From a virus (lineage: Duplodnaviria; Heunggongvirae; Uroviricota; Caudoviricetes), in IMG/VR virus record IMGVR_UViG_2737471844_000004, positions 1 through 13,401 of that record: a stretch of DNA of 13,401 nucleotides, one strand, 5' to 3'. Both the position numbers and the translations under genes were made by a program. Below are positions 1 to 10,106 of the stretch, in pieces (position 1 is the stretch's first letter; every line of letters starts with the position of its first letter). The notes below the pieces were generated by a model that saw only the letters and a list, made by a program, of their open reading frames with translations, did not search any database and was not told the origin of the DNA.

Positions 1-51
1 ATGTGTTGTAAAATCAGTCGAAGCCTAACAAGTGTGAATGACCTTTTAACC

Positions 52-762
52 ATGACGCAAGTGTTCAATGTTTACTGTGATGAGTCCTGCCATTTAGAAA
101 ATGATGGTCAAAAAGCAATGGTGCTCGGGGCTGTTTGGTGTCCTCTCAATAAGAGGTTTGGTATTGCTAATCGAATACGAGAGATAAAGCTCAAACATGG
201 CTTGGACCCACGTTTTGAAGTCAAATGGACTAAGGTTGGGGCTTCTAAAATTGAGTTTTATAAAGATTTGGTGGATTACTTCTTTGATGATGATGATCTT
301 CATTTCCGGGGATTGGTTATTCCTGACAAAACTCAGCTAAAGCATGATGATTTCGATCAAAGTCATGATGACTGGTACTATAAAATGTATTTTGTCATGT
401 TGAAAACTATTTTTGAGCCAGGAAGTCAATATAGAGTCTTTATTGATATAAAAGATACTCTTGGTCATGAGAAAATACTCAAGTTACATGATGTATTATG
501 TAACAATGCATATGATTTCTCTAGGAAAACAATTTCTAATATTAAGAGAATTAATTCTCATGAAGCTGAGCAATTGCAACTTGCTGATTTATTAATAGGT
601 GCCCTTAGTTATATGCATAGAGGTTTAAATGAAAGTAAGCCAAAACTTTTATTAATTAACAGGATCAGAGAAAGGAGCGGCTATAATCTAACCCAAAATA
701 CTTTGCTTCGAGAGTTAAAGTTTAATCTAATGATCTGGCAATCTAATGGGGGATGTCGATGA
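52..762 (+). CDS. DUF3800-like protein (family call from motif memory); start could instead be ATG at 1
   Basis: ORF 1..762; N-terminal MTQVFNVYCDES and later QLQLADLLIGALSY match the two motifs I recall for DUF3800 (N-terminal DES, C-terminal QxADxL). AT-rich. Stop TGA 760-762 overlaps next start (ATGA). Confidence 0.65.
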   Translation: MTQVFNVYCDESCHLENDGQKAMVLGAVWCPLNKRFGIANRIREIKLKHGLDPRFEVKWTKVGASKIEFYKDLVDYFFDDDDLHFRGLVIPDKTQLKHDDFDQSHDDWYYKMYFVMLKTIFEPGSQYRVFIDIKDTLGHEKILKLHDVLCNNAYDFSRKTISNIKRINSHEAEQLQLADLLIGALSYMHRGLNESKPKLLLINRIRERSGYNLTQNTLLRELKFNLMIWQSNGGCR

Positions 763-1244
763 GTCCGGTTTGGCTACCCGAGCAAATTTTATTAGAACAC
801 TATCAAGGTGAGTGGGAGGCCTACTTTGATAGTGTTTATCAAGCATTCCACCGCGATTTCGTTTTATCTAAACCAGTTTTTCGTGGCGTTCGATTAGGAT
901 TGAAACGTCATCCAGAATATGAAGGTAAATCAGCCACATTCTGGCATATGATTAGCACTGGAAATGTAGAAAGTGAGAGAGTGCCGGATATTCGGCGCTG
1001 CGAAAGAATTAGTTGGCCTAAGCCTGTTATAGATAATAGTACCGATACCTGTTTGAAAGTCTGGGCTGAGCCCAAAGGTAAAAATAGACGTATCCACATT
1101 TGGTTTGAGGATGAGGGATATCTGGTGGTTTTAGATGATAGAGGCGATTTTATGCTTCCATGGACAGCGTTTTATATTGAACATAACCATCAACGAAAGA
1201 AATACAATAAGAGATGGGAAAGACACAATCATAACGGTATTTGA
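759..1244 (+). CDS. Hypothetical protein, translationally coupled partner of the DUF3800-like gene
   Basis: ORF 753..1244; ATG at 759 has GGGGGA 6 nt upstream and overlaps the upstream stop. No recognisable motif. AT-rich like its partner. Confidence 0.6.
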   Translation: MSPVWLPEQILLEHYQGEWEAYFDSVYQAFHRDFVLSKPVFRGVRLGLKRHPEYEGKSATFWHMISTGNVESERVPDIRRCERISWPKPVIDNSTDTCLKVWAEPKGKNRRIHIWFEDEGYLVVLDDRGDFMLPWTAFYIEHNHQRKKYNKRWERHNHNGI

Positions 1245-1548
1245 TAGTAGGCTGGCCGCGCCCTTCCTAGAAGGACGGGGCCGTAACTCCTTCTACACTT
1301 ACGCTAGAAGCTGGTAGATGAGATAGCCTAACTTTAAGTAAACCTGCCTTGCGAGTCAATTAACATTAGAAAGCGATTATGTAAATGTGGATGCTGACTT
1401 GGCGAAAAATCCTTATAAATCAATAGATAGTAGGTTTATTTTCAACTCATAGTTTTTGACTATTAATAGTATGTTATCTATCTAAAAAAAGTTTTCTGTA
1501 TTCATCGCAAAATCAATACTGCTTTAGCATTGTAGTTAGCCATCAGTT

Positions 1549-1575
1549 GCAAAAAGCCTTACCCGTAGGCTTAAC
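1549..1575 (-). terminator. Possible intrinsic terminator downstream of the 59-aa gene
   Basis: On the minus strand AAGCCT-acgggta-AGGCTT followed by TTTGC; the stem is short (6 bp). Confidence 0.3.
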
Positions 1576-1611
1576 GTTTGGCTTGGCTGTAGTCTTACCG
1601 TAACGCTCCGC

Positions 1612-1791
1612 TCACCGTCGTGGCCTGTCCGGTTTCTTCCACTGATACGGCCTCACATCATCCTGCTGGTGGCGTTCCTGTTGCAGCACAACGGAAACAG
1701 GCGCTGAACACCTGTTAATTTTGCTTGCTGGTTGTTTGATTTCGGCAATGCTGCGGATCATCTCCAGCATATCGGCTTCGGTGATGGTCAT
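1612..1791 (-). CDS. Small hypothetical protein (59 aa), below the ORF-track cutoff
   Basis: Hand translation of the minus strand: MTITEADMLEMIRSIAEIKQPASKINRCSAPVSVVLQQERHQQDDVRPYQWKKPDRPRR, stop TGA (plus 1612-1614). SD AAGGTG 6 nt upstream of the ATG (plus 1789-1791). Confidence 0.4.
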   Translation of the reverse strand: MTITEADMLEMIRSIAEIKQPASKINRCSAPVSVVLQQERHQQDDVRPYQWKKPDRPRR

Positions 1792-1823
1792 GATTTACAC
1801 CTTAGGAAATCTTAGGGGGCTGG

Positions 1824-2080
1824 TTGACACTTTCCGGCTTAAGACCTTAACAAACCTTAACATCGCAGGTTGACACACTTGACACTTTTTCGCGAAAAAC
1901 CTTATCAAACCTTAGCATTTCTAAGCATGGCAACTTGACACTTTTCGCGATTTTTTTCGGCTTTTTGACGTGGTAAATCTGGCGCAAGGCCAGTAACGGC
2001 GGGGCTTACAGCGAGGTTGACACTTTTTCGCGTTCAGAGTGTAAAGTGTCAACCCGGCAAGCTGCTCAACTTGACACTTT
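1824..2080. repeat. Array of TTGACAC(TTTTTCGCG) motifs with a second ACCTTA(A/T)CAAACCTTA family; candidate packaging-recognition or protein-binding site
   Basis: TTGACAC at 1824, 1870, 1879, 1935, 2017 and 2071, an inverted copy GTGTCAA at 2046-2052, and a TTGACG variant at 1965. Three copies carry the extension TTTT(T)CGCG. CCTTAACAAACCTTAAC at 1844 and CCTTATCAAACCTTAGC at 1891. Spacing is irregular. Lies directly 3' of the TerS-like gene. Confidence 0.6.
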
Positions 2081-2086
2081 TTGATG

Positions 2087-2614
2087 TCATTGATGGTCTG
2101 ATTTTTCCCATTCAGCTAGGGCGTTTAGCCCGGCTTCACTCCATGATTCCAGTTCATCGGCATAATCACCTGCAACATAGCAGAGTTCGCAACGCAGCAT
2201 ACTAATTGCCAGCCTGGCATTACCTCGCAAATTGTATTGTTCAAAGTAATGCTGCCCGTCGCAATCCTCAAGGCAGATAGCACCATCATCAAGAAATTGC
2301 ACTTCCCAGCCTAATTCCCCGGCTGCATCCAGCACACGCTGCTGTATGCCCTCGTCCGTTGCTGGCGCAGGAATTTTACCGTCTCTGGCCTTAACTGCTT
2401 TCCAGAACTCGCCCCACGTCATTTCCAGCGTTCTCTCTGGCCACATTTCAGAAACTGTGTCTTTTCCCTGTGCTGGTGGGCTGTTCCGCTGCTCTGTCGC
2501 TTCCACATCGATTTTTTTACCGGACATGACCACTTCGCCTTTCTCGATCCAGTCGTAAACTGTCTGGCGGCTTACGCCTTTGTGTTTGGCATATTCTGCC
2601 TTACTCATCAGCAT
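2087..2614 (-). CDS. TerS-like / Nu1-like HTH DNA-binding protein with C-terminal Cys4 cluster; candidate packaging-redirecting (Rpp-like) protein
   Basis: ORF 2087..2614. N-terminus MSKAEYAKHKGVSRQTVYDWIEKG has the HTH pattern of small terminase N-termini. C-terminal C-x3-C-x23-C-x2-C (CLEDC ... CELC). Last gene of the operon, 4 nt after the upstream stop. Confidence 0.55.
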   Translation of the reverse strand: MLMSKAEYAKHKGVSRQTVYDWIEKGEVVMSGKKIDVEATEQRNSPPAQGKDTVSEMWPERTLEMTWGEFWKAVKARDGKIPAPATDEGIQQRVLDAAGELGWEVQFLDDGAICLEDCDGQHYFEQYNLRGNARLAISMLRCELCYVAGDYADELESWSEAGLNALAEWEKSDHQ

Positions 2615-2620
2615 TATGAC

Positions 2621-3292
2621 TCACCCTTCTTTTTCCAGTTGAGCCAGCCGCCCGGATATTTCTTCCAGTTTTTCCAGGGCTGGCTTGCAGGCCGCATCAA
2701 TAACGTCCCGGACCATTCCGGCAAGCTGTTCTTCTGCTGTCGGCGTTGTTACTTCCACGCCCGATGGTTTCCCGCCCTTATCCCAAACACCAAGCGGCAC
2801 GAGCGCAACGTGATCGATAAGAAATGGCGTACCCTCAATAAAAAAATTGTCCTCGCCCATTACATCAGGAACTTCTGCCCCACCTGAGGCACCACAAAAC
2901 ACAACCGACGGACTGGTGGATACCTCCCCTCGGGCTTTCTGGATGTAATCGATGATTTCCTGTCCGTAAATCCGGCATACGCCCCACACCTCGTCACCGC
3001 GAATATACGGCAACATGACGGTGCCAATAATGCGCGACCGTTCGCCCACGTCTTCAAGGGTTTTGCTTTCGGGATGGTCGATAATGACGGGTACTCCGGC
3101 GCAACGTTCCAGGAACTGCGGATTGAGATAAGTTTGCGGTGAACGCCAGACAAATTCTTTTTCTTCGGCGCGGTAGGCCATTCCGGTTCCTGTGATACGC
3201 AGGTTAACCAGCCACATGTTGGAAAACTGATAAGGCGACGGTAGCTGTCCGTCCCGAATCTGCTTCGCCGCCTCAATTTCTGTTAAAAGCAT
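2621..3292 (-). CDS. Hypothetical protein; weak prohead-protease-like pattern plus C-terminal coiled-coil-like tail
   Basis: ORF 2621..3292. VPVIIDHPES ... IIGTV ... GEVSTSPSVVF loosely recalls HK97-type prohead protease His and Ser regions; C-terminus PALEKLEEISGRLAQLEKEG looks scaffold-like. Weak RBS. Confidence 0.55.
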   Translation of the reverse strand: MLLTEIEAAKQIRDGQLPSPYQFSNMWLVNLRITGTGMAYRAEEKEFVWRSPQTYLNPQFLERCAGVPVIIDHPESKTLEDVGERSRIIGTVMLPYIRGDEVWGVCRIYGQEIIDYIQKARGEVSTSPSVVFCGASGGAEVPDVMGEDNFFIEGTPFLIDHVALVPLGVWDKGGKPSGVEVTTPTAEEQLAGMVRDVIDAACKPALEKLEEISGRLAQLEKEG

Positions 3293-3356
3293 AATGTTAT
3301 CCGGTTATAAGCAATAAGCCCCGCCAAATCCGGCAGGGCTGAACTCAGCACGTTTT

Positions 3357-3935
3357 TCATGCCCCCGCGAGGCTTGCAACGTTAATTTTGACCAGGCGAC
3401 GGGGAGGGATTTTGAAGGCGTTCAGCCAGACGTTCGGATCTCCCTGATATTCAGTAATACGACGACCAGCTTCATCCATTCTTACGGTTTTACCCAAATG
3501 GCCCGGCGTGTTTTCCACGGCCCACTGAGCACTTTCCTGAGCAGCCTTGTAAATCTGATCTTCCAGCACCGCCAGCGTTGCAGAATCTGAAACGGAACGA
3601 ATATCCACATCACTGAATTTTTTAGCCAGCTTCTGTGCGCCAATTAATGCACGTTTGCGGTAATCCATCGACTTTTCACCAGCAAACGGGGCCGGAGCGC
3701 GACGGCCCATATTGCTGTATGCGGAATCCGCTTTAGCCTGGGCTTCTGCCAGTGAGGATTCATCTTCGACTGACGCGACGATGTTTTGATTAGCGTTATC
3801 CTCTTTTATGAAATCCTGTGCGGGGATCGCATTCAGAATTTCGATAATCTCCTGCGGAGTGCTTCCCTGCGACTCTGACAGAGCGTTAACCACCTCCATC
3901 AGTTTTAATCGCAAATCTTCTTTGCTTGCTGGCAT
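3357..3935 (-). CDS. Hypothetical protein (192 aa from internal ATG), morphogenesis/packaging module by position
   Basis: ORF 3357..3944 opens at GTG; the ATG at plus 3933-3935 follows GAGAGGTGG at good spacing. No family recognised. Confidence 0.6.
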   Translation of the reverse strand: MPASKEDLRLKLMEVVNALSESQGSTPQEIIEILNAIPAQDFIKEDNANQNIVASVEDESSLAEAQAKADSAYSNMGRRAPAPFAGEKSMDYRKRALIGAQKLAKKFSDVDIRSVSDSATLAVLEDQIYKAAQESAQWAVENTPGHLGKTVRMDEAGRRITEYQGDPNVWLNAFKIPPRRLVKINVASLAGA

Positions 3936-3974
3936 TTTTACCACCTCTCTTTTTTCACCAAAAAATCACGACCA

Positions 3975-4148
3975 TCAGGCCGGACGTTCTACGGGATAAA
4001 GCGCCCGCTGCATTAAACGCCGGGCGACCTCATGAATGCTCGGAGCAATCCCCAGCGGAGAATTGCGGCGTTCCTCGTCCTGGATGCGCTGTAATGCTTC
4101 AATCTGATCACGAGCGAGTAAAACGGGTTTCACGCTGGCTTTTCTCAT
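3975..4148 (-). CDS. Small putative DNA-binding protein (RHH-like pattern), first gene of the module
   Basis: ORF 3975..4172; preferred start MRKASVK at 4148 with AGGAGA 7 nt upstream. Pattern beta-strand KPVLLARDQ followed by two helices. Confidence 0.5.
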   Translation of the reverse strand: MRKASVKPVLLARDQIEALQRIQDEERRNSPLGIAPSIHEVARRLMQRALYPVERPA

Positions 4149-4270
4149 AGTCATATCTCCTGAACAAAACAATGATTATGATTGCACAAACTGAAATGAC
4201 GATCTACATCATTGCAATTTATGAAACAATAACGCATGATGATCGCGTTCTTCCCATTGACTTCAATCAC

Positions 4271-4313
4271 CTGCAAAAATAAAACCCGCAACACTTCTGG
4301 CTGCGGGTTTTTT
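4271..4313. terminator. Bidirectional rho-independent terminator
   Basis: AACCCGCA-(11 nt loop)-TGCGGGTT at 4283-4309, flanked by an A-run (4271-4282) on one side and a T-run (4308-4313) on the other, so it has a U-tract on either strand. Confidence 0.7.
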
Positions 4314-4321
4314 ACTGGCAC

Positions 4322-4345
4322 AAAAAAGCCGGGAAAAATCCCGGC
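4322..4345 (-). terminator. Intrinsic terminator directly after the PerC-like gene
   Basis: GCCGGG-aaaaat-CCCGGC at 4328-4345, preceded on the plus strand by A6 (4322-4327), which gives a U-run on the minus-strand transcript. Sits 6 nt past the stop at 4351. Confidence 0.65.
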
Positions 4346-4350
4346 CTCCG

Positions 4351-4638
4351 TCACTGACTGCAATTTTTCGATCCAGGGTATTTCCTGAATGCCTTACCAT
4401 TGGGCTGATGTAATCCCATCCCGGCATGTGCCCGGCTGATGGTTTCGCGCATCTCCCCGAAATTATCCTGCCGTGCTGGTGGGCGTGCTGCCTTGCGGAT
4501 ACATTCCGCGCGACGTTTTGCCGCCTGTTCCCGTGCCTTGTCATCATTCGCCAGCATGATGACCTCAGCCCACCGCGCCGCCGCTCTCCGGTACAGACCA
4601 CGCGCTTCCAGTGCTTCCGCTTTGCTGTCGTGAATCAT
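4351..4638 (-). CDS. PerC-family-like transcriptional regulator
   Basis: ORF 4351..4638. N-terminus MIHDSKAEALEARGLYRRAAARWAEV and KRRAECIRKA match the PerC/Pch signature as I recall it. Start ATG overlaps the FinO-like stop (ATGA). Confidence 0.6.
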   Translation of the reverse strand: MIHDSKAEALEARGLYRRAAARWAEVIMLANDDKAREQAAKRRAECIRKAARPPARQDNFGEMRETISRAHAGMGLHQPNGKAFRKYPGSKNCSQ

Positions 4639-5231
4639 GCGCCTGTTTTCTCCTTTGCTGCCCGGCGCTGACGTTTGCGCTTCTCATTCAGCGCCACCAG
4701 CCGCGTTTCTGCGTCCTGTTGTTCCTGTGGTGTCACCTCGCCGCACGGCTGGCCTTTCAGGTCGTAGCGTACCCCACCAGCCATTAAGGCGCGGTAATAG
4801 CGCGGACACTGCGCATAAGATGCCAGCGTCGCACGTAATGCCCCTGGCCCGAATGCCAGCCCCCTGACGGCGAGATCCTGCATCAGGTCGTCGAATATCC
4901 CCACCTTAAGCGGCTTCGGTGCTTCCCGGCTGAATAATTCAGGCCACAACTCAGTGAGGCGGTTAATGCGCCTGCGGTTTTTTCGCTGCCGTTTGGTCAT
5001 ATGCCGCCACGGTGTCGCCCCTGTGGGCTTCTGCTGCGCTTTCTGGTTACCGGGCATCACTTTATGCGCCGATGTGGTTTTATCCTGCTGCTGCTGCTGC
5101 TGCTGCTGCTGCGCCGCCTGCGTCGTTTTCTGCGGCGTGCCGTAAATGCCTTTCGGTTTTCTGTTAATAGTCAGCTTAGTCATGCTTTGCCCCATCGTTT
5201 TTACTGATTGTTTCATATCCGGTACTTTCAT
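4635..5231 (-). CDS. FinO/ProQ-domain RNA-binding protein with N-terminal poly-Q tract; start codon uncertain
   Basis: ORF 4635..5231. LWPELFSREAPKPLKVGIFDDLMQDL ... YDLKGQPCGEVTPQEQQDAETRL parallels the ProQ N-terminal/FinO domain. Q9 run encoded by the repeat at 5086-5112. No clear SD at the first ATG; internal ATGs are possible starts. Confidence 0.7.
   Translation of the reverse strand: MKVPDMKQSVKTMGQSMTKLTINRKPKGIYGTPQKTTQAAQQQQQQQQQDKTTSAHKVMPGNQKAQQKPTGATPWRHMTKRQRKNRRRINRLTELWPELFSREAPKPLKVGIFDDLMQDLAVRGLAFGPGALRATLASYAQCPRYYRALMAGGVRYDLKGQPCGEVTPQEQQDAETRLVALNEKRKRQRRAAKEKTGA
5086..5112. repeat. Perfect (CTG)9 / (CAG)9 trinucleotide repeat, in frame within the FinO-like CDS
   Basis: Plus strand reads CTG nine times from 5086 to 5112. 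Confidence 0.95.
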
Positions 5232-5236
5232 CTTCT

Positions 5237-5522
5237 GGGTAGAGGGGTAGACGGCGGGTAGATAACAAAAAATAGTCCTCTACCCACTTAACTTAATGAA
5301 AAAAAACAACTTTCACACATTAGGTAGAGGGGTAGACCGTAAAATAGAAAAGTTTGAAACTTACTTTCTTACAATCTGTGTTTTCCTCTCGCTGTATAAA
5401 AAGTTTTTTGAGCGGGGATGTTGTCTACCCCTCTACCCACTTCTCTGAAAGCCTTGTGCTACGAGGGATTCAGCGGGTAGACAATAAAAAATCACCATCT
5501 ACCCTGTGTCTACCCATCTACC
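5237..5522. repeat. Iteron cluster flanking AT-rich spacers; candidate replication origin
   Basis: About 12 copies of GGTAGA(N)/TCTACC in both orientations (5237-5264, 5277-5287, 5321-5338, 5423-5440, 5473-5483, 5497-5522), including the inverted pair AGGTAGAGGGGTAGAC / GTCTACCCCTCTACCC around an AT-rich core. Immediately 3' of the primase-helicase gene. Confidence 0.65.
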
Positions 5523-5539
5523 TGTTACGGGTATTACTC

Positions 5540-7288
5540 TTATAAAAATTCCTCGGTTCTCTCCGTTTGTATAACGTTGGTTTGTATTCGTCCTTTAAAA
5601 CCTCTTGTCAGGTATTCAGCCCCATATTCTCTTGCTGCTGACTTCATGGCCTTACCAAAATCACCGACACTTAATATTTCTTCTTCCCCCATATACTCCA
5701 TAAAGGCGAGATATAGTCTGTACAGGCTTGTACGCGGATTAAGATCAGTTAATCTCTTACCGCCTCCCATCATCATCCCATGCGGTTCATCAAGAAATGC
5801 AAGCGCCGCACATAACCCAATGACAGGATCAGTTTCCTGTTTTATTTTCAGAGCTTCGGCACCGTCGCGCTGCTCCAACAATAATTCCCGTGCTTTTTCT
5901 GGATCGGAAAAGTTAGCCAGTAATCGACGAATAATGACAGGTATTTCCGCCGCTATCTTTTGCGGTAACTCTTTATCCTTTTCGGTCTCCCTTACAATAT
6001 TATCGAACCGAAAAATTACACGTCGACGCGCAACGCCTCCGGCCCGTTCGGTGAATGTCATCGGCACGTTATTTGTTGCCAGCACGACGGACCTGATAAT
6101 TGTTGTGAAACGCTTTTCATATTTCGGGTTAATTTCAACTGGATCTCCACCCGTTATTTTTTTGATGCCGGATCCTTCACCTGTATATTTCGGCTGGTCT
6201 GCCAGGACAATAAGACGACTTCCGACAACCTGCGCACGCCCGCCAGCATCATCAAGCGATGTCATTTCAGCGCTTACCGTGTTCTGTTTCCCTGCCAGAA
6301 GGGTGGCTATGTGCGTGATTGTGCTCTTGCCGCTCCCGCCTTCCCCTGTGGCCTCAATAAACATCTGCCAGTCGTACCGGTTCGCCATAATCATGTACAG
6401 CGCGGCGCATATACGCATCATCTTTCGCGGGTCTTTTCCTGCGGCGTGATCAAGCCATTTATGAAAGTTTGGCGCGTTGTCGCGGATGTTCTCCCCTGGT
6501 ACTGGTGGCGTGTACTCAATGCCGTTATGCGTGGTGATCCAGTTATCCGGCGAGTGCGGGGAAAATTCGCCAGTTTTCATGTCAAGCACGCCATTAGAGA
6601 ACGGCAATAAATCACCTGACGGTTCCCCCATTGGCCTGGCCATAACTTTTAAAGCATCCACAGCATTACTTATTGCTCTCCGACTAAACGATGTTCCGTT
6701 TTCTTCGTAAATAGCCACCATTTCACGACTAAGATCCAGTGTGCTTACCGGAACCCAAAAATCATCGCGCCAGACGTGGACAACCTCACTCTCCTGATTC
6801 ATTGCTACATCCTGAAATCGTTCAGCTAAAAGTTTTGCCCTTTGGCTGTCCGCCATTCTGGAAAGAGATATTTTGTGTTTTTTCTCGGTCCTTCCTGACA
6901 GAATTTCTCCGCGCTCAGCCTGTTCGCGGATCCGTTGCAGGTAGTCGCGCCAGTTCTCCGGTTCCTGGTCGGTGATGCCTTTGTATAATTTCGCCTCCTG
7001 TACGCCAGCCAGCGCCAGCTTTTCAGCGATAGTATTGATCTGGATTGGCTCTATCTCCCCCGCGATATAGACACGCGCAAAACGGCGTTTCTCGTCAATA
7101 ATGCGGATATTCGCCAGGTCTGCCAGTTGCTTTGGCCCCAGGTAAACAGGAGGCACGTTATCGCCGTGTTTTCGTCCTTCACTTTCAATCCAGTGTTGAG
7201 CATGGGCGTAAGCATCCGTCCCGGCAAAAATGATTACCTCAGTGAATTTATCCTTCGGCTGATATTTTAGACTCGGTGCGTTTTTCAC
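5540..7288 (-). CDS. Primase / SF3 (D5-like) helicase replication initiator, P4 alpha-like
   Basis: ORF 5540..7288, 582 aa. Walker A GEGGSGKST, Walker B-like LIVLAD, motif C VLATNN. GTG start overlaps upstream stop (GTGA) with GGGAGG 6 nt upstream. Confidence 0.85.
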   Translation of the reverse strand: MKNAPSLKYQPKDKFTEVIIFAGTDAYAHAQHWIESEGRKHGDNVPPVYLGPKQLADLANIRIIDEKRRFARVYIAGEIEPIQINTIAEKLALAGVQEAKLYKGITDQEPENWRDYLQRIREQAERGEILSGRTEKKHKISLSRMADSQRAKLLAERFQDVAMNQESEVVHVWRDDFWVPVSTLDLSREMVAIYEENGTSFSRRAISNAVDALKVMARPMGEPSGDLLPFSNGVLDMKTGEFSPHSPDNWITTHNGIEYTPPVPGENIRDNAPNFHKWLDHAAGKDPRKMMRICAALYMIMANRYDWQMFIEATGEGGSGKSTITHIATLLAGKQNTVSAEMTSLDDAGGRAQVVGSRLIVLADQPKYTGEGSGIKKITGGDPVEINPKYEKRFTTIIRSVVLATNNVPMTFTERAGGVARRRVIFRFDNIVRETEKDKELPQKIAAEIPVIIRRLLANFSDPEKARELLLEQRDGAEALKIKQETDPVIGLCAALAFLDEPHGMMMGGGKRLTDLNPRTSLYRLYLAFMEYMGEEEILSVGDFGKAMKSAAREYGAEYLTRGFKGRIQTNVIQTERTEEFL

Positions 7289-8364: not shown

Positions 8365-8581
8365 GGTGCACCTCCTGCACATCAGCCATGATAATTTTTC
8401 CGGCCTTATCCAGTGCCTGATCGGCTTTTAGCTGCACAAATGCTAAATAATGGGAGATGCATTCTGATTCTCTGGCTGCGTGTTTATGCGCCACACCAGC
8501 GATAGCAGAAATCTCAATAAGTGAATCCATCAGCGTTTTGATAGCGTCTACCGCTGCATCAGGCCATGTTGCATTACACAT
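8357..8581 (-). CDS. Small hypothetical protein (74 aa)
   Basis: ORF 8357..8581; AGGAGGTGG SD; start ATGTGTAA overlaps upstream stop by 8 nt. Confidence 0.6.
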   Translation of the reverse strand: MCNATWPDAAVDAIKTLMDSLIEISAIAGVAHKHAARESECISHYLAFVQLKADQALDKAGKIIMADVQEVHHA

Positions 8582-8939
8582 GTTCCACCTCCTGGCGAAT
8601 ACGGGCGGCGAATACCATCACGCAGCCATCAGGAGATTGCTGACGTGCTTCCTGTTCGCTGGTGGCCTCGATGTGAATTACGCGCGGTTGTGCCGTGCTC
8701 AGGGCGATAAAACGCCAGATAAAATTGTTCTCGCATTTCTGAATAAACAGCGTGTTTTCTTCGCGCCCTTTCCATGTTGCCGAGATATAGCCCATGTCAT
8801 TGAGCATCTCGCAGGCATCAACCAGCGTATCAGCAGCTACGTGTACAGTGTTTTTACCGTCAGCTATGCAATCACGGTGCACCGCCAGGAAGGTGTATAT
8901 AAATTTAGGGTGAGTTTGGGTATGCTGTGTTCCAGCCAT
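8574..8939 (-). CDS. Hypothetical protein (121 aa), first gene of the leftward operon
   Basis: Internal ATG (plus 8937-8939) of the long minus-strand open frame, with GAGGT 7 nt upstream and a promoter/operator region immediately 5'. Natural-looking sequence MAGTQHTQTHPKFIYTF... Confidence 0.6.
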   Translation of the reverse strand: MAGTQHTQTHPKFIYTFLAVHRDCIADGKNTVHVAADTLVDACEMLNDMGYISATWKGREENTLFIQKCENNFIWRFIALSTAQPRVIHIEATSEQEARQQSPDGCVMVFAARIRQEVEHV

Positions 8940-9028
8940 AATCGTTACCTCATTTAACGGTTTGGTTAGACGCCCCGCTACTGCCGCAAACAGTTCGGGG
9001 CGTTGTCGTTTACATCCTCTTACTGAGG

Positions 9029-9104
9029 TGTGATTTAAATTAAATTTAACTGAATCACAGGTCAAGTATTTTTTGTGATTCTTTTTTGTGTATACTGAAT
9101 CACA
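9029..9104. promoter_or_regulatory. Divergent promoter region with two TGTGATT-N17-AATCACA operator-like palindromes
   Basis: Palindromes at 9029-9059 and 9074-9104. Plus-strand -10-like TATACT at 9091-9096 lies inside the second; minus-strand -35 TTGACC (9060-9065) and -10 TAATTT (9037-9042) overlap the first. Confidence 0.55.
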
Positions 9105-9126
9105 TCTTTTGTTTAGGAGAATGCAC

Positions 9127-9432
9127 ATGGCAAAAAACACTATCAACGACAAATCAAAACAGATTTCAATTCGTATCCCACATGATGCTTTTGAAGGCAT
9201 GGAATCCGTAAAACTGGACGGTGAAAGCAACGCCGGATTCATAGTAACCGCCATGCGCGGTGAGATCGCCCGCCGCCAGGCAGAAGGAAGCGGAGAAAAT
9301 CCCCTGGTTTCTTCGCTCGATGCGCTGGCGCAGGTGGAAAAAATCGGAGTCAAAGCTGCCGAGGAGATCGGGCAGCTCGTCACCGTCGCACGTGAAGAAC
9401 TCCAGCGCCGCAAGGCCAAAGAATCAGAATAA
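9127..9432 (+). CDS. Small putative DNA-binding regulator (RHH-like); candidate island repressor
   Basis: ORF 9088..9432; ATG at 9127 with AGGAGA 6 nt upstream. Pattern ISIRIP (beta), HDAFEGMESVKL, NAGFIVTAMRGEIARR (helices). The only plus-strand gene in the backbone. Confidence 0.65.
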   Translation: MAKNTINDKSKQISIRIPHDAFEGMESVKLDGESNAGFIVTAMRGEIARRQAEGSGENPLVSSLDALAQVEKIGVKAAEEIGQLVTVAREELQRRKAKESE

Positions 9433-9667
9433 TAACTATCATCGCCGTGGTGTGAGGAACTCCGGCGCATTGCTTTACAGGTACACAGAATGACCAACAA
9501 AGAATCAACCAATACACCATCACCGGCACGGAAAAGACGGCGCAGAAAGATAGAGCACGAATCAGAAAGATTCGCGCCATGTGCTTTTGCCCTTGAGCAA
9601 TTCCTTAAAGAGTACAGGCGCACAAAAATGGGATCGCATACCTGGAAAACATCGCGGCATGGCAATG

Positions 9668-10106
9668 TTAAAGAGCATGAATAGCCCACCAGCAAGCCAG
9701 CACACTGATCACATTGCCCACCAGCCGCAAATCTGGCATTGTTGGCAATGTGTTCAAGTGTGTAGCTTTCCCACTGGTGGCCCTCTGCAGTCGCCTTTGT
9801 TTTATCCAGAACGAAATCAGACATCAGATTGATCAGCACCTGGTGACCTGACAAAATCGCATCAGTCACGCCACCAGCAAAATTTTTTGCTTTCCGGACA
9901 GCGTGGCCAACGGCATTTTGCAGCGAAATATTCTGCATTTCTGGCGTGCTGTAGTAACGGTGATCAGTGCCTTCACTCTGTGCGACCACAACGCTATAAT
10001 CTGCCTCGTAGACAGTAAGCAATATGGCGCAGTAGGCTATTCGTTCACAAAGGCGCTCCGGCAACGGGGCGCTTTCTCTTTTTGTAACGGTCAGAGCGTT
10101 ACACAT
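9668..10106 (-). CDS. Hypothetical ORF with well-defined 5' end but unresolved 3' end; possibly frameshifted
   Basis: ATG at 10106 overlaps the AntA-like stop by 8 nt (ATGTGTAA) and starts MCNA like the gene at 8581. First ~130 aa look protein-like, then Cys/Ser-rich junk; no in-frame stop until 8574. An alternate frame ends at plus 9668. Confidence 0.3.

What the first reader, a model, noticed from the sequence alone, without database searches (positions are those of the whole stretch)
2087..2614. TerS-like HTH protein with a C-terminal four-cysteine cluster
The N-terminus looks like a small-terminase HTH, but the C-terminus carries C-x3-C-x23-C-x2-C, a likely zinc-binding module that I do not associate with canonical TerS. 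This is a plausible DNA-recognition subunit that hijacks a helper terminase.
Basis: inference. Interest (0 to 1): 0.5.

Follow-up and report, generated by a model that had tools for sequence, protein, structure and literature searches.

The report
Satellite-island DNA-binding protein with its own repeat array
This gene from an E. coli phage-satellite island encodes a two-domain DNA-binding protein that always travels with a block of repeated DNA motifs right after it, most likely the island's own packaging address label; the four cysteines that drew attention are a recent quirk of one lineage and not a conserved zinc site.

Summary
The ORF is real (minus strand, 2614→2087, 175 aa) and has C114-x3-C118-x23-C142-x2-C145. 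The cluster is not a family feature. None of 104 full-length cluster representatives has all four Cys. Consensus there is Y/G/R/C, and the four-Cys allele occurs only in relatives ≥94.8% identical.

The window is a ~14-kb E. coli PICI-type phage satellite. The protein has a nearly invariant N-terminal winged HTH (aa 1–43, λ Nu1/Xis type), a disordered linker and an orphan α/β C-terminal domain. That domain resembles neither RppC's coiled coil nor a TerS oligomerisation domain.

The new finding is a repeat array just 3′ of the gene (window 1797–2086). It has six direct and one inverted TTGACAC copies, and related islands keep a cluster of this motif downstream of the gene. The motif is 85-fold enriched there (p≈1e-60). 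The array is not the origin (GGGTAGA iterons at 5224–5523), lies 0.1–2 kb from att, and is absent from plasmids, phages and the candidate helper. No λ or P2 cos is present.

Best reading (≈45%): an island-encoded packaging-specificity factor plus its recognition site. It would be analogous in function to Rpp+cosB or SaPI TerS+pac, but not a member of those families.

The parts
2087..2614 (-). Target gene, 175 aa: two-domain DNA-binding protein, last gene of the island's late operon
   Evidence: ORF and translation; 115 homologues, Enterobacterales only, nearly all 'hypothetical'; AF2 model mean pLDDT 88.4
2486..2614 (-). N-terminal winged HTH, aa 1-43, nearly invariant across the family (K4 Y7 S14 R15 Q16 Y19 K33 invariant)
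2444..2485 (-). Variable linker, aa 44-57; the model is disordered (pLDDT <50) at about aa 46-55
   Evidence: pLDDT <50 at model residues 45-54; conservation 0.17 for aa 46-60
2090..2443 (-). C-terminal orphan α/β domain (aa 58-175; β-α-α-β-β-β-α-β-α). Carries the lineage-specific Cys codons at 2273-2275, 2261-2263, 2189-2191 and 2180-2182
1797..2086 (.). Repeat array directly 3' of the gene. TTGACAC (+ strand) at 1824, 1870, 1879, 1935, 2017 and 2071; inverted GTGTCAA at 2046-2052; imperfect copies at 1965 and 2081. Extended motif in gene orientation is AAAAGTGT(C/A)AA. Presumed binding sites of the HTH and candidate packaging-recognition site
   Evidence: 85-fold enrichment downstream of homologues in 19 divergent loci, Poisson 1e-60; seen right after the gene in every whole IMG/VR contig examined that has more than 30 bp there (35 of 39; the other 4 are cut at the stop codon), and in L011/L014/L024 as a cluster 1.5-4 kb downstream behind cargo; architecture conserved (A3); homology block with L007 is exactly 1797-2614
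1985..2012 (.). Semi-conserved central segment (gene orientation ...GTAAGCCCCGCCGTTACTGGCC...) between the proximal and distal motif clusters; candidate cleavage or second-factor site (speculative)
   Evidence: Conserved in window, L007, L012, L016, L059 and L062 in alignment A3; no phage match
1799..1925 (.). Second repeat type: three pairs of CCTTA(R) (YTAAGG in gene orientation) spaced 10-11 bp, each next to a TTGACAC copy; possible sites for the RHH-like partner
   Evidence: the repeat finder D2/D4; 70-fold enriched in the array, E. coli clade only
3975..4172 (-). orf65 (probably starts at 4151/4148): small ribbon-helix-helix-like protein, found upstream of the target in 9 of the 20 related genome loci
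   Evidence: Synteny; AF2 pLDDT 86, extended strand plus 2 helices; no Pfam, PHROG or PDB sequence match
2621..3292 (-). DUF2213 protein (223 aa), homologous to the N-part of a phage head-module protein (scaffold/protease position); optional neighbour of the target
   Evidence: Pfam DUF2213; phrog_6216 E=7e-80; 54% identity to Rac-SA53 'nudix/TolA', which lies between the portal/head-morphogenesis genes and the capsid gene
3357..3944 (-). orf195, homologous to the C-part of the same phage protein (phrog_6216 positions 409-544)

Best explanation
The gene and the 290-bp repeat array after it form one module of a phage-inducible chromosomal island (PICI-type satellite). The protein's invariant N-terminal winged HTH (λ Nu1/Xis type) binds the AAAAGTGT(C/A)AA copies: an inverted pair about 30 bp apart next to the stop codon, plus several direct copies. 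The flexible linker lets the C-terminal α/β domain make protein contacts, either with itself to bridge sites or with a terminase subunit supplied by the helper phage (or, in some islands, by the island's own TerS). The resulting nucleoprotein complex marks island DNA as the packaging substrate. In function this is the same as Rpp+cosB in λ-dependent E. coli PICIs or TerS+pac in SaPIs, but it is built from an unrelated C-terminal domain and a different site architecture. Shown: domain architecture, co-inheritance and conservation of gene plus array, late-zone position, and exclusion of origin, att and plasmid roles. Inferred: that the HTH binds the array, and that the outcome is packaging. The four cysteines are a recent, lineage-specific substitution pattern and not a conserved zinc site.
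Confidence: 0.45

Rival explanations
1. Transcription factor. The protein is a regulator (repressor, activator or roadblock) and the array is an operator cluster. It would control cargo genes or the small ORF downstream, insulate them from late-operon read-through, or titrate the protein away from helper promoters.
Against: No σ70-like promoter is called in the array. No conserved gene follows the array: orf59 is found only in the E. coli clade, and elsewhere cargo, att or chromosome follows. Five to nine sites over 260 bp at the 3' end of an operon is atypical for an operator. The gene sits among virion genes, not in the regulatory region next to int/alpA.
Confidence: 0.2
2. Recombination directionality factor (excisionase) or other integration accessory protein, with the array as arm-type sites of attP.
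Against: The distance from array to att varies: ~2 kb in A17 and the window with a defence system in between, 0.45-1.2 kb in L024. Site spacing of 25-82 bp with an inverted pair is unlike tandem Xis sites. A canonical AlpA-like gene sits next to int. At 175 aa with an extra 115-aa domain the protein is atypical for RDFs. There is no similarity to any phage Xis by tblastn.
Confidence: 0.08
3. Replication or maintenance accessory. The array would be a second cis-replication region (like P4 crr), a centromere or partition site, or a multimer-resolution site bound by the HTH protein, possibly with the RHH-like orf65.
Against: A classic origin with different iterons (GGGTAGA) lies next to the primase. 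The array is unchanged when the origin and helicase module is swapped. The family is absent from 72,556 plasmids. No ParA/ParM-type partner or resolvase is present in the window.
Confidence: 0.1
4. One reading: the C-terminal four-Cys cluster binds zinc and is a functional part of a helper-hijacking DNA-recognition subunit.
For: The spacing C-x3-C...C-x2-C is present and unlikely by chance in one sequence. Within the E. coli clade Cys residues accumulate stepwise at exactly these positions (WGRC, WGCC, CDCC/CYCC, CCCC), which could reflect selection for a new metal site. Cys114 and Cys118 lie on a β-hairpin and Cys142 and Cys145 on one face of the adjacent helix.
Against: 0 of 104 cluster representatives and 89 of 96 loci lack the full set. 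The domain is predicted confidently from an alignment dominated by sequences without these Cys, so the fold does not depend on metal. Cys142 and Cys145 sit mid-helix, which is not at a helix N-terminus or a knuckle as in classical zinc ribbons. No zinc-finger family or fold match was found.
Confidence: 0.1

Closest known systems
Rpp (RppA/B/C; redirecting phage packaging protein of λ/φ80-dependent E. coli PICIs; PDB 6HLK, 6HN7; PMC6739421, PMC9026076)
   Different: No detectable sequence similarity to RppC (phmmer and profile searches of PDB at E≤10). The C-terminus is an α/β domain rather than the α4-α6 coiled-coil dimeriser. 175 aa versus 135-153 aa. The recognition site lies downstream of the gene and has 5-9 repeated motifs, whereas cos-PICI lies upstream of rpp with cosQ/cosN and a single proposed R3. 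No λ-type cosN or cosQ anywhere. The likely helpers are not λ-like.
SaPI small terminase (TerS_S) with SaPI pac site
   Same: A satellite-encoded DNA-recognition factor that directs the helper's packaging motor to satellite DNA at a satellite-specific site. It lies at the end of the morphogenesis operon, next to capsid-size remodelling genes.
   Different: SaPI TerS is a true TerS homologue with an oligomerisation domain and a TerL-binding region. The present protein shares only a 42-aa HTH with one TerS family (PHROG 57) and coexists with a genuine Terminase_2 TerS in Pantoea islands.
λ gpNu1 (TerS) DNA-binding domain with cosB R sites
   Different: There is no match beyond the DBD, no TerL-binding C-terminus, no adjacent terL, and no cosN. 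The sites lie 3' of the gene rather than 5'.
Excisionase/Cox-type winged-HTH proteins (Pukovnik Xis 4J2N, P2 Cox 4LHF, RdfS 8DGL)
   Different: They are single-domain proteins of 50-90 aa acting at att arms or promoters. Here there is an extra 115-aa domain, the array is at a variable distance (0.1-2 kb) from att, and the repeats are not tandem.

Membership tests
Rpp (redirecting phage packaging) family | Detectable sequence homology to RppA/B/C | tested here: not met
   phmmer and family-profile hmmsearch against all PDB chains (which include RppC 6HLK/6HN7) at E≤10 return no Rpp
Rpp (redirecting phage packaging) family | N-terminal wHTH DBD that mimics the λ TerS DBD | tested here: met
Rpp (redirecting phage packaging) family | C-terminal three-helix region with a long coiled-coil α6 for homo- and heterodimerisation | tested here: not met
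Rpp (redirecting phage packaging) family | cosQ-cosN of λ type immediately upstream of the gene | tested here: not met
   The upstream gap is 6 nt; there is no cosN with fewer than 3 mismatches in the window and none near the array in ~100 loci
Rpp (redirecting phage packaging) family | Binds helper TerS and blocks helper packaging | not testable with these tools
Small terminase subunit (TerS; Nu1, Terminase_2 and others) | Full-length match to a TerS family, including oligomerisation and TerL-binding regions | tested here: not met
   Only aa 1-42 match PHROG 57; no Pfam TerS family; no similarity to TerS of Rac-SA53, PdC23 or Chronis; fold searches find only the DBD
Small terminase subunit (TerS; Nu1, Terminase_2 and others) | Encoded next to terL, as the sole small subunit | tested here: not met
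   No terL in the window; in L008 a genuine Terminase_2 TerS sits immediately upstream of the homologue, so the two are distinct components
Structural zinc-binding module (Cys4 zinc ribbon, knuckle or treble clef) | Four metal ligands conserved across homologues | tested here: not met
   0/104 representatives have all four; CCCC only in 7/96 loci, all ≥94.8% identical
Structural zinc-binding module (Cys4 zinc ribbon, knuckle or treble clef) | Match to a zinc-finger family or fold | tested here: not met
Structural zinc-binding module (Cys4 zinc ribbon, knuckle or treble clef) | Metal actually bound / ligand geometry | not testable with these tools
   Model coordinates not exposed; needs ICP-MS or a crystal structure
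Excisionase / recombination directionality factor | Small single-domain wHTH protein | tested here: not met
Excisionase / recombination directionality factor | Binding sites within the att arm close to the core | tested here: not met
   The array is ~2 kb from attL in A17 and the window, 0.45-1.2 kb in L024 and ~0.1 kb in L015, so the distance is not conserved
PICI (phage-inducible chromosomal island) - the element that carries the gene | Integrase, AlpA-type regulator, primase/replicase with adjacent origin, size 10-20 kb, no full set of structural or lysis genes, flanking att repeats | tested here: met
   induction by a helper was not testable

The most novel reading that the evidence does not exclude
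This protein family plus its AAAAGTGT(C/A)AA array would be a previously undescribed, Rpp-independent packaging-redirection system used by a large class of enterobacterial PICIs, including the 'type C' islands whose packaging is currently unexplained. A Nu1-like HTH would be tethered to a new α/β adaptor domain that recruits terminases of non-λ (probably headful) helpers to a multi-site, island-specific pac-like region, perhaps together with a small RHH protein. A side possibility is that the E. coli lineage is in the process of evolving a new Cys4 metal site on this domain.
Probability: 0.35. Interest if true: 0.7.

Novelty: new variant of a known kind. Interest (0 to 1): 0.45.

Why it matters
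How Gram-negative PICIs get packaged is understood only for λ/φ80-dependent islands (Rpp + cos). For islands such as EcCIMP1, the authors state that no terminase or packaging module can be recognised (PMC11773190). The family described here occurs in many Enterobacterales genera: Escherichia, Citrobacter, Klebsiella, Enterobacter, Serratia, Pantoea, Raoultella, Yersinia and others. It is found on more than 100 IMG/VR contigs, always as the last late gene and always with the same repeat array. If it is the packaging-specificity module, it gives a testable handle on the mobilisation of islands that carry defence systems and virulence cargo. It would also be a compact protein-plus-site cassette that could be used to engineer transducing particles. 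It also corrects an appealing but wrong lead: the zinc cluster is not a family feature.

Tried and rejected
- Sequence searches of the PDB with the protein and with the family profile found no Rpp, TerS or zinc-finger match.
- Foldseek against PDB and BFVD found nothing significant. AFDB50 was unavailable.
- tblastn of the protein and blastn of the array region against 50,697 phage genomes found no match. A 121-bp central segment gave only chance-level hits.
- λ cosN search in the window gave chance level only. λ and P2 cos searches across ~100 loci found none near the array.
- The origin hypothesis for the array was rejected: a separate GGGTAGA iteron origin lies at 5224-5523, and the array is unchanged when the replication module is swapped.
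- The att-arm (Xis site) hypothesis was weakened by the variable 0.1-2 kb distance to att.
- The promoter hypothesis was not supported, since no σ70-like site is called in the array.
- The plasmid or partition context was rejected: only one HTH-only hit in PLSDB.
- Helper-site mimicry was rejected for the candidate helper: Rac-SA53 has no strict motif in 50 kb.
- Virome contig ends and terminal repeats, tried as a proxy for packaging termini, were uninformative. There were no DTRs and several contigs were trimmed at gene boundaries.
- Genomic context of the standalone C-domain proteins could not be read because the contigs were too short.
- Single-strand folding of the array gave only a modest z-score (-2.6) and was not pursued.
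- Literature searches for DUF2213 and for PICI/PerC found no description of this family.

Full report
**Observation.** The ORF lies on the minus strand (ATG at 2614, stop at 2087-2089) and encodes 175 aa, MLMSKAEYAKHKGVSRQTVYDW... Its only four cysteines are at 114, 118, 142 and 145, giving C-x3-C-x23-C-x2-C. The start codon is 6 nt after the stop of the upstream DUF2213 gene and has a GAAGGGTGA Shine-Dalgarno-like sequence in front. Random placement of four Cys in 175 positions gives two close pairs with p≈0.006, or ≈0.001 with all constraints. So the pattern is real and unusual for a single sequence.

**The cysteines are not a family feature.** A database search found 115 homologues. All are from Enterobacterales and almost all are annotated as hypothetical. 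In 104 full-length cluster representatives, none has all four Cys. The usual residues are Y/F/W at 114, G/D at 118, R/M at 142 and C at 145, with C145 present in 69 of 104. Among 96 DNA loci the CCCC pattern occurs only in 7, all ≥94.8% identical to the query. The pattern is CDCC at 93% identity, CYCC at 88-89% and WGRC at 83%. There is no Cys at any of the four positions at 37-45% identity. A structural zinc site would be conserved, and this one is not. Position 114 is normally an aromatic residue, which suggests a core position. The stepwise gain of Cys within the E. coli clade is curious. It leaves a small chance that this allele binds metal, but the family does not need it.

**What the element is.** The window is 99-100% identical over most of its length to a ~14.3-kb island in E. 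coli A17. That island lies between yicC and dinD and is bounded by a 21-bp direct repeat. Read in the direction of transcription (minus strand), the gene content is:
- P4-type integrase, a 260-aa ORF, an AlpA-like HTH, an AntA-type antirepressor and several small ORFs;
- a D5-type primase-helicase, followed by a classic origin (more than 10 GGGTAGA iterons in both orientations around an AT-rich core, 5224-5523);
- a ProQ/FinO protein and PerC;
- after a terminator-like hairpin, the operon orf65 - orf195 - DUF2213 - target.

Beyond the target lie the repeat array, a 59-aa ORF and a two-gene candidate defence system (PADLOC PDC-M04 A+B, E 8e-98 and 9e-74). This is a PICI-type phage satellite. 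It belongs to the class that the EcCIMP1 paper describes as lacking recognisable terminase or packaging genes (PMC11773190).

**The protein.** AlphaFold2 with a 99-sequence alignment gives mean pLDDT 88.4. The model has three parts:
- a winged HTH (aa 1-43);
- a disordered linker (about aa 46-55);
- a compact α/β domain (aa ~60-170, pLDDT 94-98).

**The repeat array (new).** The intergenic DNA immediately 3' of the stop codon contains six direct TTGACAC copies (+ strand 1824, 1870, 1879, 1935, 2017, 2071), one inverted copy (2046-2052) and two imperfect ones. There is no other copy anywhere in the 13.4-kb window. In 19 divergent genome loci from at least 12 genera, the 7-mer is 85-fold enriched in the 350 bp after the gene: 39 copies in 6.65 kb against 18 in 261 kb, Poisson ≈1e-60. 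In all 35 of 39 whole IMG/VR contigs that have more than 30 bp after the gene, the cluster is present. The other four are cut at the gene's stop codon. Positions are fixed within each subfamily.

Alignment of arrays from proteins only 37-60% identical shows a conserved layout (A3):
- an invariant inverted pair, TTGACACTTT-N~23-AAAAGTGTCAAcc;
- a variable centre, with a semi-conserved ...CCGCCGTTACTGG... in several lineages;
- two or more direct AAAGTGTCAAcc copies.

In the E. coli clade each distal copy is accompanied by a pair of YTAAGG repeats 10-11 bp apart. These pairs are 70-fold enriched in the array. In L011, L014 and L024 (which shares only the HTH), the array is displaced 1.5-4 kb by inserted cargo: PADLOC defence candidates in L024, an unannotated ORF in L011, and unexamined DNA in L014. 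An invariant recognition helix paired with an invariant motif core strongly suggests that the HTH binds these sites. That step is inferred and has not been shown.

**What the array is not.**
- Not the origin. The GGGTAGA iteron origin sits next to the primase, and A17 has replaced window 5207-6899 (origin plus the helicase part) with a RepA-type module. A17 keeps window 1-5206, which includes the array, at 99.3% identity, and 1800-3400 is 100% identical.
- Not an att arm. The distance to att is ~2 kb here, 0.45-1.2 kb in L024 and ~0.1 kb in a degenerate island.
- Not a σ70 promoter by consensus scan, and no conserved gene follows it.
- Not a copy of a helper site. The candidate helper Rac-SA53 has no strict motif in 50 kb.
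- Not a λ or P2 cos. Neither occurs near the array in ~100 loci.

In E. ruysiae (L007) the block of homology to the window is exactly 1797-2614, that is, array plus gene, with unrelated DNA on both sides. The two parts behave as one module.

**Context pointing to packaging.** The target is always the last gene of the island's late zone. The gene just upstream differs between islands and, where it can be annotated, is a captured virion gene:
- DUF2213 and orf195 here. These are homologous to the N- and C-parts of a 430-550-aa protein that sits between the portal/head-morphogenesis genes and the major capsid gene in Rac-SA53, PdC23 and Chronis;
- λ-type tail assembly protein I, a tape measure protein, a gpV-like spike, a neck protein and an ejection/transglycosylase-like protein;
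- families of unknown function.

In Pantoea stewartii islands a genuine Terminase_2 small terminase lies 47 bp upstream of the homologue and is followed by the array. That places the gene in a packaging neighbourhood. It also shows that the target is a separate component from TerS. A small RHH-like protein (orf65; AF2 pLDDT 86, strand plus two helices) lies upstream of the target in 9 of the 20 related genome loci. It could bind the second repeat type.

**Mechanism proposed.** The HTH domains bind the repeats. The flexible linker and C-domain bridge sites and/or recruit a terminase subunit, so that island concatemers are chosen for packaging. This matches the logic of Rpp+cosB (PMC6739421, PMC9026076) and SaPI TerS+pac, with different parts. 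I put this at about 45%. DNA binding to the array on its own I rate at about 75%. The rivals are a transcriptional regulator or roadblock (~20%), a replication/partition accessory (~10%), an excisionase-type factor (~8%) and a functional zinc site in this allele (~10%, which is not exclusive of the others).

**Novelty and score.** The zinc lead is not supported. The HTH and the packaging idea are partly supported and are sharpened by the discovery of the co-inherited array. As a probable new variant of satellite packaging redirection it is moderately interesting, at 0.45, but the evidence is entirely computational.

Noticed in passing
window 5224-5523: Classic replication origin directly after the D5-type primase gene: more than 10 GGGTAGA(G/C) iterons in both orientations flanking an AT-rich core.
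   Followed up: partly
window 5207-6899 vs L001 17389-19596: E. coli A17 carries the same island with the origin and the C-terminal helicase part of the replication gene replaced by a RepA-family helicase module. The N-terminal ~140 aa of the primase are retained at 86% identity. This looks like a modular swap of initiator plus origin.
   Followed up: partly
window 1-1244 (+ strand): DUF3800 protein plus a 163-aa protein match the two-gene candidate defence system PADLOC PDC-M04 A/B (E 8e-98 and 9e-74). This is cargo at the distal end of the island. In L024 the cargo inserted between gene and array matches other PADLOC defence candidates, and L011 has an unannotated insert there.
   Followed up: partly
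window 2621-3944 (- strand): orf195 and the DUF2213 protein correspond to the C- and N-terminal parts of a single phage head-module protein (phrog_6216, 545 positions), but in permuted order: the C-part gene comes first. A terminator-like hairpin (3317-3340) lies between them. Possibly a capsid-size remodelling pair derived from a helper scaffold/protease.
   Followed up: partly
L008 27-7525 and L009 (Pantoea stewartii ATCC 8199): Satellite-like islands that carry a primase, baseplate hub and gpV-like spike genes, their own Terminase_2 TerS and the target homologue plus array. This is an unusual mix of tail and packaging genes for a small island, and the genome has four copies of the family.
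   Followed up: partly
P0131, P0132, P0137, P0139, P0140, P0142, P0147: Standalone versions of the C-terminal α/β domain (130-149 aa, no HTH) exist in unidentified bacteria, so the domain has an autonomous function. The contigs were too short to read context.
   Followed up: partly
window 2180-2275 (codons 114, 118, 142, 145) and loci L036-L057: Within the E. coli clade, Cys residues accumulate stepwise at the same four positions (WGRC, WGCC, CDCC/CYCC, CCCC) as identity to the query rises from 77-83% to ≥95%. This could be drift or the emergence of a new metal or redox site.
   Followed up: partly
window 4635-5231 (- strand): The ProQ/FinO-domain protein has an N-terminal extension with a run of nine glutamines (QQQQQQQQQ). 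A17 annotates a shorter start.
   Followed up: no
window 8574-10106 (- strand): The 510-aa ORF listed mechanically is probably not a gene. In A17 this stretch is annotated as several small genes, including an Icd-like cell-division inhibitor and a YlcI/YnfO-family protein on the opposite strand.
   Followed up: no
window 1612-1791 (- strand) and 1245-1611: A 59-aa ORF with a good RBS follows the array but is conserved only in the E. coli/E. ruysiae clade. It is followed by ~370 bp of AT-rich non-coding DNA before the defence cargo.
   Followed up: no
window 4281-4311 and 4175-4202 (- strand): A strong terminator-like hairpin after perC is followed by a promoter-like site in front of orf65. This suggests that orf65-orf195-DUF2213-target is a separate late transcription unit.
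   Followed up: no
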